Assembly (NCBI GenBank): GCA_035361955.1
Contig: DAOSDC010000004.1
Location: 14,916-78,915, forward strand
Length of the DNA: 64,000 bases
From: Bacilli bacterium
Lineage (GTDB): Bacteria; Bacillota_I; Bacilli_A; RFN20; CAG-826
Reading direction: 5' to 3'
The notes below the pieces were generated by a model. It saw only the letters and a list, made by a program, of their open reading frames with translations, made no database searches and was not told the origin of the DNA. Position numbers and translations under genes: made by a program. This document shows, piece after piece, positions 20,695 through 23,457 of this stretch (within the stretch, counting starts at the first letter, position 1; the number at the start of each line of letters is the position of its first letter).

Positions 20695-23457
20695 ATGGTT
20701 ATGAGACCTAGAATGAAGATATTCACTATCACTGTCGCGATATTCCTCATTGTTTCATGCGGACAGTCTTCAAGTTCGAGTTCATCAGACACATCCTCCG
20801 ATATATCATCAACGACAAGCGTGAGTGAGACCTTAAGTAGTACGTCTCAAGAAACACCATCCAGCTCCTCAAGCAGTTATAGTGAATCAAGCTCAAGTAG
20901 CGAAAGCTCATCACTCCCAAATGATGAGATTAGAATCGCTCCTATCATTGATACATTCAATCTCGACGATGAATTGGATTTGATTTTTTCGATTAATTCA
21001 GGAATGTATTCTTTTTCTCACGTTGAAGGTTTGGGAATTACGGCAACAGATTATGAATTTCTCGGTGGCAATCTCTCAATCAAAAGCCATTATCTTCGAT
21101 ATTTCCTGAGTGATGGCATTTATGAACTTGATGCCGTGTTTACCAATATTGAAGGTCAAGTAACAGAAAAACTGATCTTTGAGATCGTCAGAGACAACCA
21201 TAGCAATCGCATTCATAACGCCGGATTTGAGACCGGGGATTATCATGGTTGGAATGCTTATCAGTTATGGAAAGACGAATCAGGATTATCATCATTTAGA
21301 AGTGAACGCATTGTTAATAATCCAAACTATGGTTCATTAAACGCTAATACATATAATCGAGATGGTAACTATCATCTGGGTGTCTATGCCTCCCCATATA
21401 GCGGCACCAACAAAGATATCAACCAAGAACGGATGGGCATGCTTCGCTCCTCGGATTTTGTATTGGGCGGATCAGGTTGGATTAGTTTCAAACTAGGCGG
21501 CGGCCAAAACATTGGTACGGCCTATCTATCAGTTAAAGAAAGTGTCACTAATATCGAAATTGCCAGGTTTGGTAATCGCCACTTTGGTAATACTGCCATA
21601 TCAGGAACCGCAAATGCTGAAGCGTATTTGTTCCAATATTACGCTGATTTATCGGCTCACATTGGTAAGACTTTATATGTGCTTGTAACCGATGCCGCTT
21701 CTCATGAATGGAATGTGCTATCCCTTGATTCGGTGGAAACATTTTTGGAAACTGCCCCAACGCCAACCCCAGAAGAAGTTGCCATTGACATCAAACCAGT
21801 TATTTATGGAATCGGTCAAAATAATACATCAATCATCAACACGCTTAGCTCGAATGTAAACAATTGGGAAGACCCATCAAACATTTTCCAATTCACTGAT
21901 AACCGAGCGAGAACCAATAAAACACTCGGAGATGCGGCGCTAGGTGTTGTTCGTTCACCGGCGTTCAAAGTAAGCTCCCTAGGTAATCGTGCGCTTGTCT
22001 GGGAATGGGAAGGTGCACTTAATCTTGATAAGCAAATATTCCTGCTCGTCAAGGAAGTGCATACGAACATTGAAGTTTTAAGATTAACTAGGCGCGATAA
22101 CCTCTCCAGTAAAAGCGGTGGCGGCATGGATAAGCATTGGTATGATCTAGGTTGGTTAGCGCCCGACAAGGAATACTATGTGGAACTCGTCGATAACGCC
22201 AAATCAAGTTGGGGACTCATTAGTATACGTAACATTGATATCGTACCAATCAATGATAGTCGCGCATCTCTGGCTACGGATATGGCCATTAATTGTAACT
22301 ATGGATTAGCCCGTGTCGATTTTGCCACAGGCGGATACCGTCAAGCATCCGACTATAGTTATGAACAAGTCACTTCGGTGCTCGATGTGTTTGTGAGTCT
22401 AGGAGAAGATGCTAGTACATCGGCCATTTTAGGTTATCAGACGAATTCAAACCACACCTGGATCGAATACCGCAAACAGTGGCAAATGAGCGTCTCAATC
22501 GAACCTAGTGCTTATAACGATACTCAAGGCGTCAAACGCGTGGAGTTCAATGAGTTGCATCAAAACGCGACCTATCAATACCGCATTCATGATCGGGCTA
22601 ATGCTTCGTCCTGGAAACGGTTTTTAACACCCGACCCGAATGATTTCACATTTGCTTTCGCCGGCGATAGCCAGTCGCTATCACTTGAATCAGCGCATAT
22701 TCTTGAAAATCTTTTTTCCGCCGCCCTATATCATGACGAGGGCATATCATTTGGTTTGATGACTGGTGATTTGGTTGAAGAAGGCGCGAATGAAAAGATG
22801 TGGCAATGGTTTTTCGAGGCCACACGTACTCGTGAAACGATGGCAATTATGGGCGTTCCTGGAAATCACGACTACTATGCTACCGATGGCGTCTGGTTTA
22901 ATAACAATTTATTTGAACAGAAAATTCCCCATCCACGTAACGGAATCGGTAGTTTTTCATCCTATTATTTTAAGATTGGAAACGCCCTATTCATCATGCT
23001 TGATGCGGTCGATTCAACGTATGGTCAATCACAAATCGATTGGTTCCGAGGTATCGTCAGTGATAATCCCGCAACTCATATAATCGTGGGCACCCATTAT
23101 AGTGCCTATGGCGGTCACCATGCGACGACCTCGGAAAACTTCCGTAATGTCTGGAGTCCGGTGTTTGATGAGTGTAATGTCGATGTCGTGCTCTCGGGCC
23201 ATGACCATTTGTTTACCCGGACACCGCCGATGCGCAACAATATTGTTAATCGTAGCAATGGAACGATTTATTTAACAGGCGGTTCCGCCAGTGCCAAAAT
23301 ATACGATGTTCCTGCATCTTTGTATAGCCAATATGATTTTTATATGAGCGCAAGACAAAATGTCATCACGATTGTTAATGTAACGAATACTGCAATAAAC
23401 TTTACGACGATTAATCCTAACGGAGACATCGTCGATCAGTTTTCCACCCCCGTGTAA
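20695..23457 (+). CDS. Surface lipoprotein: Ser-rich linker, Ig-like domain, two tandem jelly-roll modules (family member 2), and a C-terminal purple-acid-phosphatase-like calcineurin-type metallophosphoesterase
   Basis: Lipobox LIVSCG. Modules: HNAGFETGDYHGW ... LRSSDFVLGGSGWISFKLGGG, and a second copy ...VVRSPAFKV...LVWEWEGA. Phosphoesterase motifs FAFAGDSQS, MTGDLVEEG, GVPGNHDYY and LSGHDHLF, preceded by a PAP-N-like region (YQYRIHD). Confidence 0.75.
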   Translation: MVMRPRMKIFTITVAIFLIVSCGQSSSSSSSDTSSDISSTTSVSETLSSTSQETPSSSSSSYSESSSSSESSSLPNDEIRIAPIIDTFNLDDELDLIFSINSGMYSFSHVEGLGITATDYEFLGGNLSIKSHYLRYFLSDGIYELDAVFTNIEGQVTEKLIFEIVRDNHSNRIHNAGFETGDYHGWNAYQLWKDESGLSSFRSERIVNNPNYGSLNANTYNRDGNYHLGVYASPYSGTNKDINQERMGMLRSSDFVLGGSGWISFKLGGGQNIGTAYLSVKESVTNIEIARFGNRHFGNTAISGTANAEAYLFQYYADLSAHIGKTLYVLVTDAASHEWNVLSLDSVETFLETAPTPTPEEVAIDIKPVIYGIGQNNTSIINTLSSNVNNWEDPSNIFQFTDNRARTNKTLGDAALGVVRSPAFKVSSLGNRALVWEWEGALNLDKQIFLLVKEVHTNIEVLRLTRRDNLSSKSGGGMDKHWYDLGWLAPDKEYYVELVDNAKSSWGLISIRNIDIVPINDSRASLATDMAINCNYGLARVDFATGGYRQASDYSYEQVTSVLDVFVSLGEDASTSAILGYQTNSNHTWIEYRKQWQMSVSIEPSAYNDTQGVKRVEFNELHQNATYQYRIHDRANASSWKRFLTPDPNDFTFAFAGDSQSLSLESAHILENLFSAALYHDEGISFGLMTGDLVEEGANEKMWQWFFEATRTRETMAIMGVPGNHDYYATDGVWFNNNLFEQKIPHPRNGIGSFSSYYFKIGNALFIMLDAVDSTYGQSQIDWFRGIVSDNPATHIIVGTHYSAYGGHHATTSENFRNVWSPVFDECNVDVVLSGHDHLFTRTPPMRNNIVNRSNGTIYLTGGSASAKIYDVPASLYSQYDFYMSARQNVITIVNVTNTAINFTTINPNGDIVDQFSTPV

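What the first reader, a model, noticed from the sequence alone, without database searches (positions are those of the whole stretch)
20695..23457. Tandem-module protein fused to a purple-acid-phosphatase-like metallophosphoesterase: candidate phosphomannan phosphodiesterase/phosphatase
All four metallophosphoesterase motifs (GDxx, GDLV, GNHD, GHDH) and a PAP-N-like region are present on a surface lipoprotein inside a mannoside locus. Yeast and fungal mannans carry mannosyl-phosphate diesters and Man-6-P. Known Bacteroides mannan PULs also include phosphatases. Fusing the enzyme to the locus-specific binding modules suggests targeted removal of phosphate decorations before GH125/GH130 action.
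Basis: partly seen in the sequence, partly recalled or inferred. Interest (0 to 1): 0.7.

Follow-up and report, generated by a model that had tools for sequence, protein, structure and literature searches.

The report
Surface phosphoesterase inside a mannoside operon
A real 920-residue surface lipoprotein joins two sugar-binding-type modules to an intact purple-acid-phosphatase-like enzyme and sits, in many related bacteria, inside an operon for digesting beta-1,2/alpha-1,6-mannosides, so it most likely strips phosphate groups from a phosphorylated mannan, but this activity is untested.

Summary
ORF 20695..23457(+) encodes a 920-aa lipoprotein with five parts:
- a Ser/Thr-rich linker;
- a short unassigned domain;
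- two homologous CBM4/16/22-like beta-sandwich modules;
- a PAP-type N-terminal beta-sandwich;
- a calcineurin-like catalytic domain.

All five metallophosphoesterase motifs are present and invariant across 23 homologues. Six of the seven PAP metal ligands are kept. The chromophoric Tyr is an invariant Glu, so it is PAP-like but not a true purple acid phosphatase.

The host is a wall-less-type Bacilli MAG (relatives are Izemoplasmatales/Acholeplasmatales), not Bacteroides. The locus is a beta-1,2/alpha-1,6-mannoside system. It has a Lin0857-like phosphorylase, a BT3780-like secreted GH130, a DUF1861 related to Leishmania mannogen enzymes, GH125, and PMM/PMI/ROK.

The new evidence is synteny. 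The homologue lies in a same-strand array with module-GH125 and F5/8C-GH130 in 9 of 11 species-representative genomes. Unfused relatives never do. Among the catalytic domains I could recognise, the module pair is fused almost only to this enzyme and to GH125.

The glycan-targeted phosphoesterase role is therefore well supported by context. The substrate and the mono- versus diesterase chemistry remain inferred. I rate it a new variant of a known kind, of moderate interest.

The parts
20695..20760 (+). Signal peptide ending in the lipobox IVSC (Cys22), for a lipid anchor on the outer face of the membrane
   Evidence: Sequence reading and regular-expression match. Where the N-terminus is complete, homologues carry signal peptides or lipoboxes.
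20761..20919 (+). Ser/Thr-rich low-complexity linker, aa 23 to about 75
   Evidence: 70% Ser/Thr over aa 23-75. The same kind of linker is seen in neighbouring surface proteins.
20920..21189 (+). Short conserved domain of about 90 aa, unassigned and possibly Ig/X2-like
   Evidence: Conserved positions in the A1 consensus. No Pfam match. Relatives carry CBM_X2 or Ig-like domains in their precomputed Pfam annotation; their position in those proteins was not checked. The assignment is an inference.
21202..21759 (+). Module 1: CBM4/16/22-like beta-sandwich, aa 170-355, with motifs NAGFETGDYHGW and MGMLRSSDF...ISFKLGGG
21778..22302 (+). Module 2: a diverged duplicate of module 1, aa 362-536
   Evidence: 24% identity to module 1, E=5e-8. 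Same model.
22372..22629 (+). PAP-type N-terminal beta-sandwich (FN3-like), aa 560-645
   Evidence: PF16656 at 22.4 bits, below cut-off. Beta-strands at model residues 27-109. Foldseek alignments to plant PAPs span both domains.
22642..23454 (+). Calcineurin-like binuclear metallophosphoesterase catalytic domain, aa 650-920. Ligands are D658, D692, N724, H801, H836 and H838. E695 sits at the PAP Tyr position. Second-shell residues are H725 and H809.
   Evidence: PF00149 E=4.1e-13. Profile against PDB: PAPs at E=9e-16 to 6e-12. Invariant columns.
18902..20548 (+). Upstream same-strand gene: a module-pair-only surface protein with a C-terminal transmembrane anchor. Probably a glycan-capture partner.
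   Evidence: 41% identity to the module pair over 376 aa, E=2e-91. No Pfam match.
32757..35306 (-). GH125 exo-alpha-1,6-mannosidase-family protein carrying the same module pair at its N-terminus
   Evidence: PF06824 E=1.7e-112. Module-pair similarity 28%, E=9e-25.
30256..32829 (-). F5/8 type C plus GH130 of the secreted beta-1,2-mannosidase type. It is the operon partner of the phosphoesterase in other genomes.
   Evidence: Pfam. PDB hits 3taw, 5a7v (BT3780) and 3qc2 (BACOVA_03624). PMC4599007. Synteny.

Best explanation
The gene encodes a lipid-anchored cell-surface enzyme. Two tandem CBM-like beta-sandwich modules hold it on the mannose-rich glycan that the locus degrades; the same modules are found on the locus GH125 and on module-only capture proteins. 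A PAP-fold binuclear metallophosphoesterase domain then hydrolyses phosphate esters on that glycan.

The likely substrates are Man-6-phosphate monoesters and/or the Man-alpha-1-phosphate-6-Man diester bridges. In Candida-type phosphomannan those bridges carry beta-1,2-oligomannosides.

Removing the charged groups would let the secreted GH130 beta-1,2-mannosidase and the GH125 alpha-1,6-mannosidase proceed. Products would be imported by the ABC system, phosphorolysed by the Lin0857-like GH130 and DUF1861 enzymes, and passed through PMM, PMI and the ROK kinase into glycolysis.

Shown here: the domain architecture, the intact and conserved catalytic residues, the extracellular location signals, the shared modules, and the conserved operon membership.

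Inferred: catalysis on a glycan phosphate, the identity of the glycan, the mono- versus diesterase chemistry, and the metals used.
For: **Catalytic competence**
- PF00149 is well above its cut-off.
- A family profile hits plant PAPs and a PAP phytase at E=9e-16 to 6e-12.
- The C-terminal model has pLDDT 92.1 and superposes on two-domain PAPs at TMq 0.75-0.81.
- D658, D692, N724, H725, H801 and H838 are invariant, and H836 and H809 are at least 90% conserved, in 23 homologues of 37-59% identity.

**Location**
- The query has a lipobox. Homologues have signal peptides.

**Targeting**
- 6 of 52 family members give weak CBM_4_9 hits.
- The pair recurs in four other proteins of this locus, including GH125.
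- Among the best 150 representatives, the only partners matching the catalytic domains of this window are this phosphoesterase (6) and GH125 (3). A Pfam scan of 52 of them adds one GDSL lipase and no other catalytic family.

**Context**
- The gene lies on the same strand among DUF1861, module proteins, module-GH125, F5/8C-GH130 and a Glug protein in L005-L008 and L012-L020. In L004 it lies beside PMM-PMI-ROK.
- Unfused relatives of 35-41% identity (L022-L024) and all remote relatives (L026-L089) have no recognisable glycan-degrading mannoside-locus gene (GH125, GH130, DUF1861) within the flanks. A few show only weak 24-38% hits to PMM, PMI or ROK.

**Locus chemistry**
- GH130 at 40937..41965 matches the Lin0857 beta-1,2-mannobiose phosphorylase at E=1.9e-89.
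- The secreted GH130 matches the BT3780 and BACOVA_03624 beta-1,2-mannosidases (PMC4599007).
- DUF1861 matches the Leishmania mannogen enzymes (PDB chains named MPT-1, -2 and -4) at E=1e-43.

**Precedent**
- Mannan PULs need phosphatases (PMC4978465).
- The bacterial PAP-like enzyme Rv2577 has both mono- and diesterase activity (PMC7642983).
Against: - There are no biochemical data for any member of this family.
- PAP-type enzymes are typically broad-specificity monoesterases.
- The closest clade splits. P0004 (53% identity) is in the operon. P0003 and L010 (54-55%) are not, and sit beside a PF01663 phosphodiesterase gene. L009 lacks the glycoside hydrolases.
- The module ligand is unknown. 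Fold matches are generic, at 7-14% identity.
- The locus has no recognisable alpha-1,2 or alpha-1,3-mannosidase or GH76, GH92, GH38 or GH99. A classical yeast-mannan substrate is therefore not established.
- The Tyr-to-Glu change and the Asp-x-Gln first motif mean the metal site differs from every characterised PAP.
- All loci examined were found by searching with the phosphoesterase. I do not know how often the operon occurs without it.
Confidence: 0.55

Rival explanations
1. It is a general extracellular phosphate-scavenging or nucleotide/nucleic-acid phosphoesterase. The CBM-like modules merely tether it to polysaccharide-rich debris or to the cell's own surface complex. Its position in the mannoside operon reflects co-expression convenience, not a glycan phosphate substrate.
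For: - The closest solved relatives are broad phosphatases, a phytase and the nucleotide/DNA-active PPD1 (PMC4062093, listed).
- PhoD is the next-best fold match.
- In L003 and L010 the fused gene sits beside a PF01663 phosphodiesterase gene among housekeeping genes.
- Izemoplasmatales relatives are reported DNA degraders. This is from memory and was not checked.
Against: - The gene is embedded between GH125 and GH130 genes on the same strand in many species. Unfused relatives never are.
- The targeting modules are otherwise fused almost only to GH125.
Confidence: 0.2
2. It acts on a different phosphodiester belonging to the same or another glycoconjugate. Candidates are the inositol-phosphate or lipid anchor of phospholipomannan, lipomannan or GPI-type molecules, ethanolamine-phosphate on mannose, or a teichoic-acid-like or capsular sugar-phosphate polymer.
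For: - The same context evidence as the main explanation does not discriminate between phosphate positions.
- PAP-like and PhoD enzymes can be diesterases.
- Beta-1,2-mannans also occur on lipid-anchored glycoconjugates (general knowledge).
Against: No lipid- or inositol-handling gene was recognised in the locus. There is no direct evidence either way.
Confidence: 0.15
3. The metallophosphoesterase domain is catalytically dead or repurposed, for example as a phosphate- or phosphosugar-binding domain or for a non-phosphoester reaction.
For: The PAP Tyr ligand is replaced by Glu, and the first motif is Asp-x-Gln rather than Asp-x-His or Gly-Asp-x-Gly.
Against: - All other ligands and both second-shell histidines are invariant or nearly so across 37-59% identical homologues. 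This is the pattern of an active enzyme.
- Asp or Glu at the Tyr position is common to the whole bacterial clade.
Confidence: 0.05

Closest known systems
Plant-type (large) purple acid phosphatases: kidney bean and sweet potato PAP, wheat PAP phytase, lupin PPD1
   Same: Two-domain architecture of an N-terminal beta-sandwich plus an alpha/beta metallophosphoesterase core (Foldseek E down to 5e-24, TMq 0.75-0.81). Six of seven metal ligands and the His202- and His296-equivalent residues are kept.
   Different: Only 14-18% identity. The chromophoric Tyr ligand is an invariant Glu. The first motif is D-x-Q. The domain is fused to two CBM-like modules and a lipoprotein anchor. The genomic role appears to be glycan-specific.
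Mycobacterium tuberculosis Rv2577, a bacterial PAP-like phosphatase/phosphodiesterase
   Same: A bacterial, exported protein with Pur_ac_phosph_N plus Metallophos domains. It has documented dual mono- and diesterase activity at neutral to alkaline pH (PMC7642983).
   Different: Rv2577 keeps the Tyr ligand (Y220), has no CBM-like modules and is not in a glycan-utilisation operon.
Bacteroides thetaiotaomicron mannan-PUL phosphatases BT3783 and BT2630
   Same: These are phosphatases encoded inside a mannan-degrading locus. They remove phosphate from phosphorylated mannan or N-glycan after the mannose cap is removed (PMC4978465). They are the closest functional analogue.
   Different: They have an unrelated fold: Mg2+-dependent and tyrosyl-DNA-phosphodiesterase-like. 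They have no CBM fusion and come from a Gram-negative SusC/D-type PUL.
Bacillus subtilis PhoD
   Same: A secreted PAP-related phosphodiesterase/phosphatase. It is the second-best fold class match (2yeq, E=9e-18; PMC4223295, listed).
   Different: PhoD has a different ligand set and metal content (Fe3+ plus two Ca2+). There is no PhoD Pfam match here, and PhoD is a Pho-regulon scavenging enzyme.
CBM4/9, CBM16 and CBM22-type beta-sandwich carbohydrate-binding modules
   Different: 7-14% identity. No Pfam or NCBIfam model covers them. They always occur as a diverged tandem pair. The family is small, with 667 representatives, and the ligand is unknown.

Membership tests
Calcineurin-like metallophosphoesterase superfamily (PF00149) | Pfam model match above the gathering score | tested here: met
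   50.6 bits against a cut-off of 21.5, E=4.1e-13, aa 652-838.
Calcineurin-like metallophosphoesterase superfamily (PF00149) | Five conserved motif blocks that supply the binuclear metal ligands: D-x-[H/G], GD-x-x-[D/Y], GNH[D/E], H, and GH-x-H | tested here: met
   D658-S-Q, G691-D692-L-V-E695, G723-N-H-D726, H801 and G835-H-D-H838. These are invariant or at least 90% conserved in 23 homologues. The first motif has Gln where His or Gly is usual.
Purple acid phosphatase (PAP) | All seven invariant metal ligands Asp, Asp, Tyr, Asn, His, His, His. The Tyr gives the Fe(III)-tyrosinate chromophore. | tested here: not met
   Six of seven are present. In the profile alignment to sweet potato PAP, GDlVEr aligns with GDLSYS, so Glu695 replaces the Tyr. 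Glu is invariant in the fusion family, and Asp, Glu or Asn occurs in wider bacterial relatives.
Purple acid phosphatase (PAP) | N-terminal FN3-like beta-sandwich preceding the catalytic domain (large, plant-type PAPs) | tested here: met
   PF16656 is sub-threshold in the query (22.4 against 30 bits) but is in the precomputed Pfam annotation of many homologues. The model shows a beta-sandwich at aa 562-644, and Foldseek alignments to PAPs span about 410-430 columns.
Purple acid phosphatase (PAP) | Acid pH optimum, purple colour, tartrate-resistant phosphomonoesterase activity | not testable with these tools
   Requires purified protein.
PhoD-like phosphatase | PhoD and PhoD_N Pfam domains and the PhoD ligand set | tested here: not met
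   No PhoD Pfam match. PhoD 2yeq is a weaker fold match than the PAPs.
Mannan-locus glycan phosphatase (BT3783-type) | Endonuclease/exonuclease/phosphatase-like, Mg2+-dependent fold | tested here: not met
   The fold here is calcineurin-like/PAP. BT3783 is described as tyrosyl-DNA-phosphodiesterase-like (PMC4978465). The relationship is a functional analogy only.
Mannan-locus glycan phosphatase (functional class) | Encoded within, and conserved with, a mannan or mannoside degradation locus | tested here: met
   Same-strand operon membership in L004-L008 and L012-L020 and in the window. The exceptions are L003, L010 and L009.
Mannan-locus glycan phosphatase (functional class) | Releases phosphate or cleaves phosphodiesters from phosphorylated mannan | not testable with these tools
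   Needs enzyme assays.
CBM_4_9-like carbohydrate-binding modules | Beta-sandwich jelly-roll fold of the CBM4/9/16/22 type | tested here: met
CBM_4_9-like carbohydrate-binding modules | Sequence membership (PF02018 above threshold) | tested here: not met
   No Pfam hit in the query. Only weak hits, best E=6.9e-8, in 6 of 52 relatives.
CBM_4_9-like carbohydrate-binding modules | Demonstrated carbohydrate binding | not testable with these tools
   Needs ITC, glycan arrays or affinity gels.

The most novel reading that the evidence does not exclude
The protein founds a new class of glycan-processing enzyme. It would be a PAP-fold, Tyr-less binuclear phosphodiesterase that acts endo-wise on mannosyl-phosphate bridges. 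That action would release phosphodiester-linked beta-1,2-oligomannosides from Candida-type phosphomannan for import and phosphorolysis. The enzyme would be guided by a previously unclassified tandem CBM family specific for that glycan. This would be the wall-less Bacilli counterpart of the Bacteroides route that uses a glycosidase and then a phosphatase, achieved in one step with unrelated machinery.
Probability: 0.25. Interest if true: 0.75.

Novelty: new variant of a known kind. Interest (0 to 1): 0.55.

Why it matters
- Phosphate decorations block exo-mannosidases. So far only one enzymatic solution is characterised, the Bacteroides route of a GH38 or GH92 uncapping enzyme followed by an EEP-fold phosphatase.
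- A conserved, CBM-targeted, PAP-fold phosphoesterase in the mannoside operons of Izemoplasmatales/Acholeplasmatales-like bacteria would be an independent solution.
- It would assign a first physiological substrate class to the large, uncharacterised bacterial group of PAP_N plus Metallophos proteins that lack the Tyr ligand.
- It would define a new CBM family.
- It would help explain how these poorly known wall-less anaerobes feed on fungal or microbial cell-wall mannans.
- Practically, such an enzyme could be a tool for removing or mapping mannosyl-phosphate on yeast-produced glycoproteins.

Tried and rejected
**Searches that found nothing or could not run**
- NCBIfam gave no family for the protein or its unknown neighbours.
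- Single-sequence PDB search gave only marginal PAP hits, best E=2.6e-4. A family profile was needed.
- The afdb50 fold library was unavailable, so no annotated AlphaFold relatives of the module pair could be retrieved.
- The search for related loci with the broad C-terminal alignment A3 failed because it has no conserved stretch. I replaced it with the trimmed family alignment A4.
- Foldseek of the module pair against the PDB found only generic tandem beta-sandwich matches, TM at most 0.29.
- I tried to identify the convergent neighbour, the 962-aa protein, as a known glycosidase. There is no Pfam, NCBIfam or PDB hit, even with a 21-sequence profile.
- Literature searches for a described PAP-type enzyme in a mannan locus, or for Izemoplasmatales mannan use, found nothing relevant.
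- The promoter and terminator scan around the gene was no better than shuffled sequence.

**Readings considered and rejected**
- A true purple acid phosphatase: the Tyr ligand is absent.
- A PhoD family member: no PhoD domains.
- A Bacteroides-type PUL: there is no SusC/D, the locus uses an ABC transporter, and the anchoring is of the Gram-positive or Mollicute type.
- A chance motif match: excluded by the E-values above.
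Full report
**1. Observation**

The finding's coordinates coincide exactly with one ORF, 20695..23457(+), ATG start, 920 aa.

Pfam finds a calcineurin-like phosphoesterase domain at aa 652-838 (PF00149, E=4.1e-13, 50.6 bits against a cut-off of 21.5). [quoted passage not shown]

The N-terminus has a lipobox (IVSC, Cys22) followed by a linker that is 70% Ser/Thr.

The 'tandem module' is real. Residues 170-355 and 362-536 are homologous to each other (24% identity, E=5e-8). 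The pair is paralogous to four other proteins of the window:
- 18902..20548: 41% identity, E=2e-91.
- 26415..28067(-): 42% identity, E=2e-83.
- 35325..36836(-): 35% identity, E=6e-67.
- The N-terminus of the GH125 protein 32757..35306(-): 28% identity, E=9e-25.

**2. The catalytic domain**

A single-sequence search of the PDB gives only marginal hits to plant purple acid phosphatases. A profile built from 23 full-length homologues (alignment A1) gives clear hits:
- Wheat PAP phytase, E=9e-16.
- Sweet potato PAP, E=6.5e-13.
- Kidney bean PAP, about 6e-12.
- Lupin PPD1, E=3e-10.
- Mammalian ACP5, about 3e-6.

An AlphaFold model of aa 536-920 is confident (pLDDT 92.1, pTM 0.91). It superposes on the two-domain plant PAPs over about 410-430 columns (E down to 4.8e-24, TMq 0.75-0.81). 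PhoD is next at 9e-18, and the mammalian single-domain PAPs follow.

Conservation across the 23 homologues of 37-59% identity:
- D658, Q660, G691, D692, V694, E695, G723, N724, H725, H801 and H838 are invariant.
- H836 and H809 are at least 90% conserved.

In the profile alignment to sweet potato PAP, 'GDlVEr' aligns with 'GDLSYS'. Glu695 therefore occupies the place of the tyrosine that gives PAPs their Fe(III)-tyrosinate colour. Six of the seven PAP ligands are kept, along with the two second-shell histidines (kidney bean His202 and His296 equivalents: H725 and H809). The Tyr is missing.

Wider bacterial relatives also have Asp, Glu or Asn at that position, and D-x-Q or D-x-H as the first motif. 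This is a Tyr-less bacterial branch of the PAP fold, closer in motif II to the generic GDxVDRG of the superfamily (my knowledge). The pattern is that of an active binuclear enzyme, but it is not a member of the purple acid phosphatases in the strict sense.

**3. The modules**

A model of aa 165-540 is confident (pLDDT 90.8, pTM 0.91) and shows two beta-sandwiches.

- CBM4, CBM61, CBM8, CBM29 and CBM22.

Foldseek finds no close solved analogue of the pair (TM at most 0.29). No Pfam or NCBIfam model covers the modules.

An exhaustive profile search finds only 667 representatives at E<=1e-3 among 1.84 billion cluster representatives, so the family is small. Among the best 150 representatives, the only partners matching the catalytic domains of this window are this phosphoesterase (6) and GH125 (3). 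A Pfam scan of 52 members adds:
- Weak CBM_4_9 matches in 6.
- GH125 in 3.
- One GDSL lipase.
- Otherwise Ig-like, cadherin-like and X2 domains.

The modules are therefore best read as a distant, unclassified CBM4/9-like pair. Among the catalytic domains I could recognise, its partners are almost only a mannosidase and this phosphoesterase. Binding itself is inferred.

**4. The locus and the organism**

Neighbouring proteins identical to those of the window are labelled 'Bacilli bacterium' MAG. Homologues come from Izemoplasmatales, Acholeplasmatales and related Bacilli MAGs. This is not a Bacteroides PUL. Uptake is by an ABC system.

The surrounding genes form two convergent operons.

Plus strand:
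- RpiR-type regulator.
- PGM/PMM.
- PMI.
- ROK kinase.
- Module-only protein.
- The phosphoesterase.

Minus strand, in order of transcription:
- LacI-type regulator.
- Two unknown proteins of 682 and 646 aa.
- GH130.
- Solute-binding protein and two permeases.
- DUF1861.
- Module-only protein.
- Module-GH125.
- F5/8C-GH130.
- DUF4992/Glug protein.
- Module-only protein.
- An unknown 962-aa protein.

Specificity clues:
- The 342-aa GH130 matches the Listeria Lin0857 beta-1,2-mannobiose phosphorylase at E=1.9e-89.
- The secreted GH130 matches 3taw, 5a7v (BT3780) and 3qc2 (BACOVA_03624). BT3780 and BACOVA_03624 were shown to be beta-1,2-mannosidases acting on Candida mannan (PMC4599007).
- DUF1861 matches the Leishmania beta-1,2-mannogen enzymes (PDB chains named MPT-1, -2 and -4) at about 1e-43.

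The locus thus handles beta-1,2- and alpha-1,6-mannosides.

**5. Conservation of context (the main new evidence)**

I looked up homologues on their contigs and scanned one genome per species. I then mapped the window's proteins onto the loci with tblastn.

In the operon:
- The phosphoesterase gene lies on the same strand, between or next to DUF1861, module proteins, module-GH125, F5/8C-GH130 and the Glug protein in L005, L006/L012, L007, L008 and L013-L020.
- In L004 it lies directly upstream of PMM-PMI-ROK-LacI...GH130.
- Of the 11 species-representative genomes with a close homologue (L010-L020), 9 show this context.

Exceptions:
- L003/L011 and L010 form one clade in which the gene follows a PF01663 phosphodiesterase gene.
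- L009 has only a homologue of the 962-aa protein, 6 kb away.

Controls:
- Unfused relatives of 35-41% identity (L022-L024) and all 64 more remote relatives (L026-L089) have no GH125, GH130 or DUF1861 gene within the flanks. A few show only weak 24-38% hits to PMM, PMI or ROK (L022, L028, L036, L074).
- Fusion to the modules and residence in the operon therefore go together.

Caveat: all loci were found by searching with the phosphoesterase. I cannot say how often the operon lacks it.

**6. Mechanism proposed**

The most likely function is a surface, glycan-tethered phosphoesterase. It would remove phosphate monoesters (Man-6-P) and/or cleave mannosyl-phosphate diesters from the mannan that the locus degrades. 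That would clear the way for the exo-acting GH130 and GH125.

In Candida-type phosphomannan, part of the beta-1,2-oligomannosides is attached through Man-alpha-1-phosphate-6-Man bridges (general knowledge, not tested here). This would fit a locus specialised in beta-1,2-mannosides.

Precedents:
- The need for phosphate removal in mannan loci is documented. B. thetaiotaomicron uses a GH38 to cleave the Man-1-P linkage and the phosphatases BT3783 and BT2630 (PMC4978465). Those have an unrelated, Mg2+-dependent, tyrosyl-DNA-phosphodiesterase-like fold.
- The bacterial PAP-like enzyme Rv2577 hydrolyses both pNPP and bis-pNPP (PMC7642983).

What remains inferred: catalysis, substrate, metal content, and mono- versus diesterase chemistry.

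**7. Rivals**

- (a) A general phosphate-scavenging or nucleotide/DNA phosphoesterase merely tethered by the modules. This fits the broad specificity of PAPs and the L003/L010 context. It fits poorly with the operon embedding and the module distribution.
- (b) Action on another phosphodiester of a mannose-containing glycoconjugate, such as an inositol-phosphate anchor, ethanolamine-phosphate or a sugar-phosphate polymer. My data do not exclude this.
- (c) A dead or repurposed domain. This is unlikely given the invariant ligands.

**8. Comparison and novelty**

- By fold, it is a member of the calcineurin-like superfamily and of the PAP structural class. It fails the defining Tyr-ligand test for purple acid phosphatases.
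- It is not PhoD.
- It is a functional analogue, not a relative, of the Bacteroides mannan-PUL phosphatases.
- The modules are CBM4/9-like by fold only.
- Databases call the family 'metallophosphoesterase family protein', 'acid phosphatase type 7' or hypothetical. I found no paper describing it.

I rate it a new variant of a known kind: a known catalytic fold and a known functional need, in a new fusion, a new host group and with a new module family. Interest is moderate at 0.55. The case is testable with simple assays and would be more notable if the enzyme proves to be a mannosyl-phosphodiesterase.

Noticed in passing
window 23494-26382 (-) and 43911-45959 (-): The 962-aa and 682-aa proteins are paralogues (24% identity). 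Their conserved family has no Pfam, NCBIfam or PDB sequence match, even with a 21-sequence profile. One relative carries a UniRef name 'Linalool dehydratase...', which hints at an (alpha/alpha)6 barrel. Several acidic residues are invariant. They are candidates for an unclassified glycoside hydrolase of the mannoside locus. A 66%-identical homologue lies 6 kb from the phosphoesterase homologue in L009.
   Followed up: partly
window 18902-20548 (+), 26415-28067 (-), 35325-36836 (-): Three surface proteins consist of little more than the same module pair, plus an anchor and a short helical tail. They look like the Gram-positive or Mollicute counterpart of surface glycan-binding proteins.
   Followed up: partly
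window 36833-37762 (-): The DUF1861 protein matches the Leishmania beta-1,2-mannogen enzymes (PDB chains named MPT-1, -2 and -4; E about 1e-43). It sits next to ABC permeases and in the same locus as a Lin0857-like GH130, so the locus may have two intracellular beta-1,2-mannoside phosphorylases.
   Followed up: partly
L003 8803-9927 and L010 6888-8003: In one clade, the closest homologues of the fused phosphoesterase are not in a mannoside operon. They directly follow a PF01663 (type I phosphodiesterase/nucleotide pyrophosphatase) gene among housekeeping genes. The PF01663 match is on record for L003 only; the L010 ORF has the same position and size but was not scanned.
   Followed up: partly
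window 28098-30245 (-): A 715-aa lipoprotein with weak DUF4992 and Glug matches is conserved next to the F5/8C-GH130 gene in nearly all related operons. Its function is unknown.
   Followed up: no
window 809-5729 (+): Two adjacent genes each encode GH43 plus a C-terminal 3-keto-disaccharide-hydrolase-like (PF06439) domain, upstream of the mannoside locus.
   Followed up: no
window 7919-14048 (+): An ABC system sits just upstream of the locus regulator. It has a solute-binding protein with no Pfam match, a fused double permease of 626 aa and a MalK-type ATPase. An RDD protein and a Y_phosphatase3 protein follow it. Any relation to the mannoside or phosphate theme is unknown.
   Followed up: no
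window 32757-32829: ORFs 30256..32829(-) and 32757..35306(-) overlap by 73 nt. The GTG start listed for the GH130 ORF is probably too far upstream.
   Followed up: no
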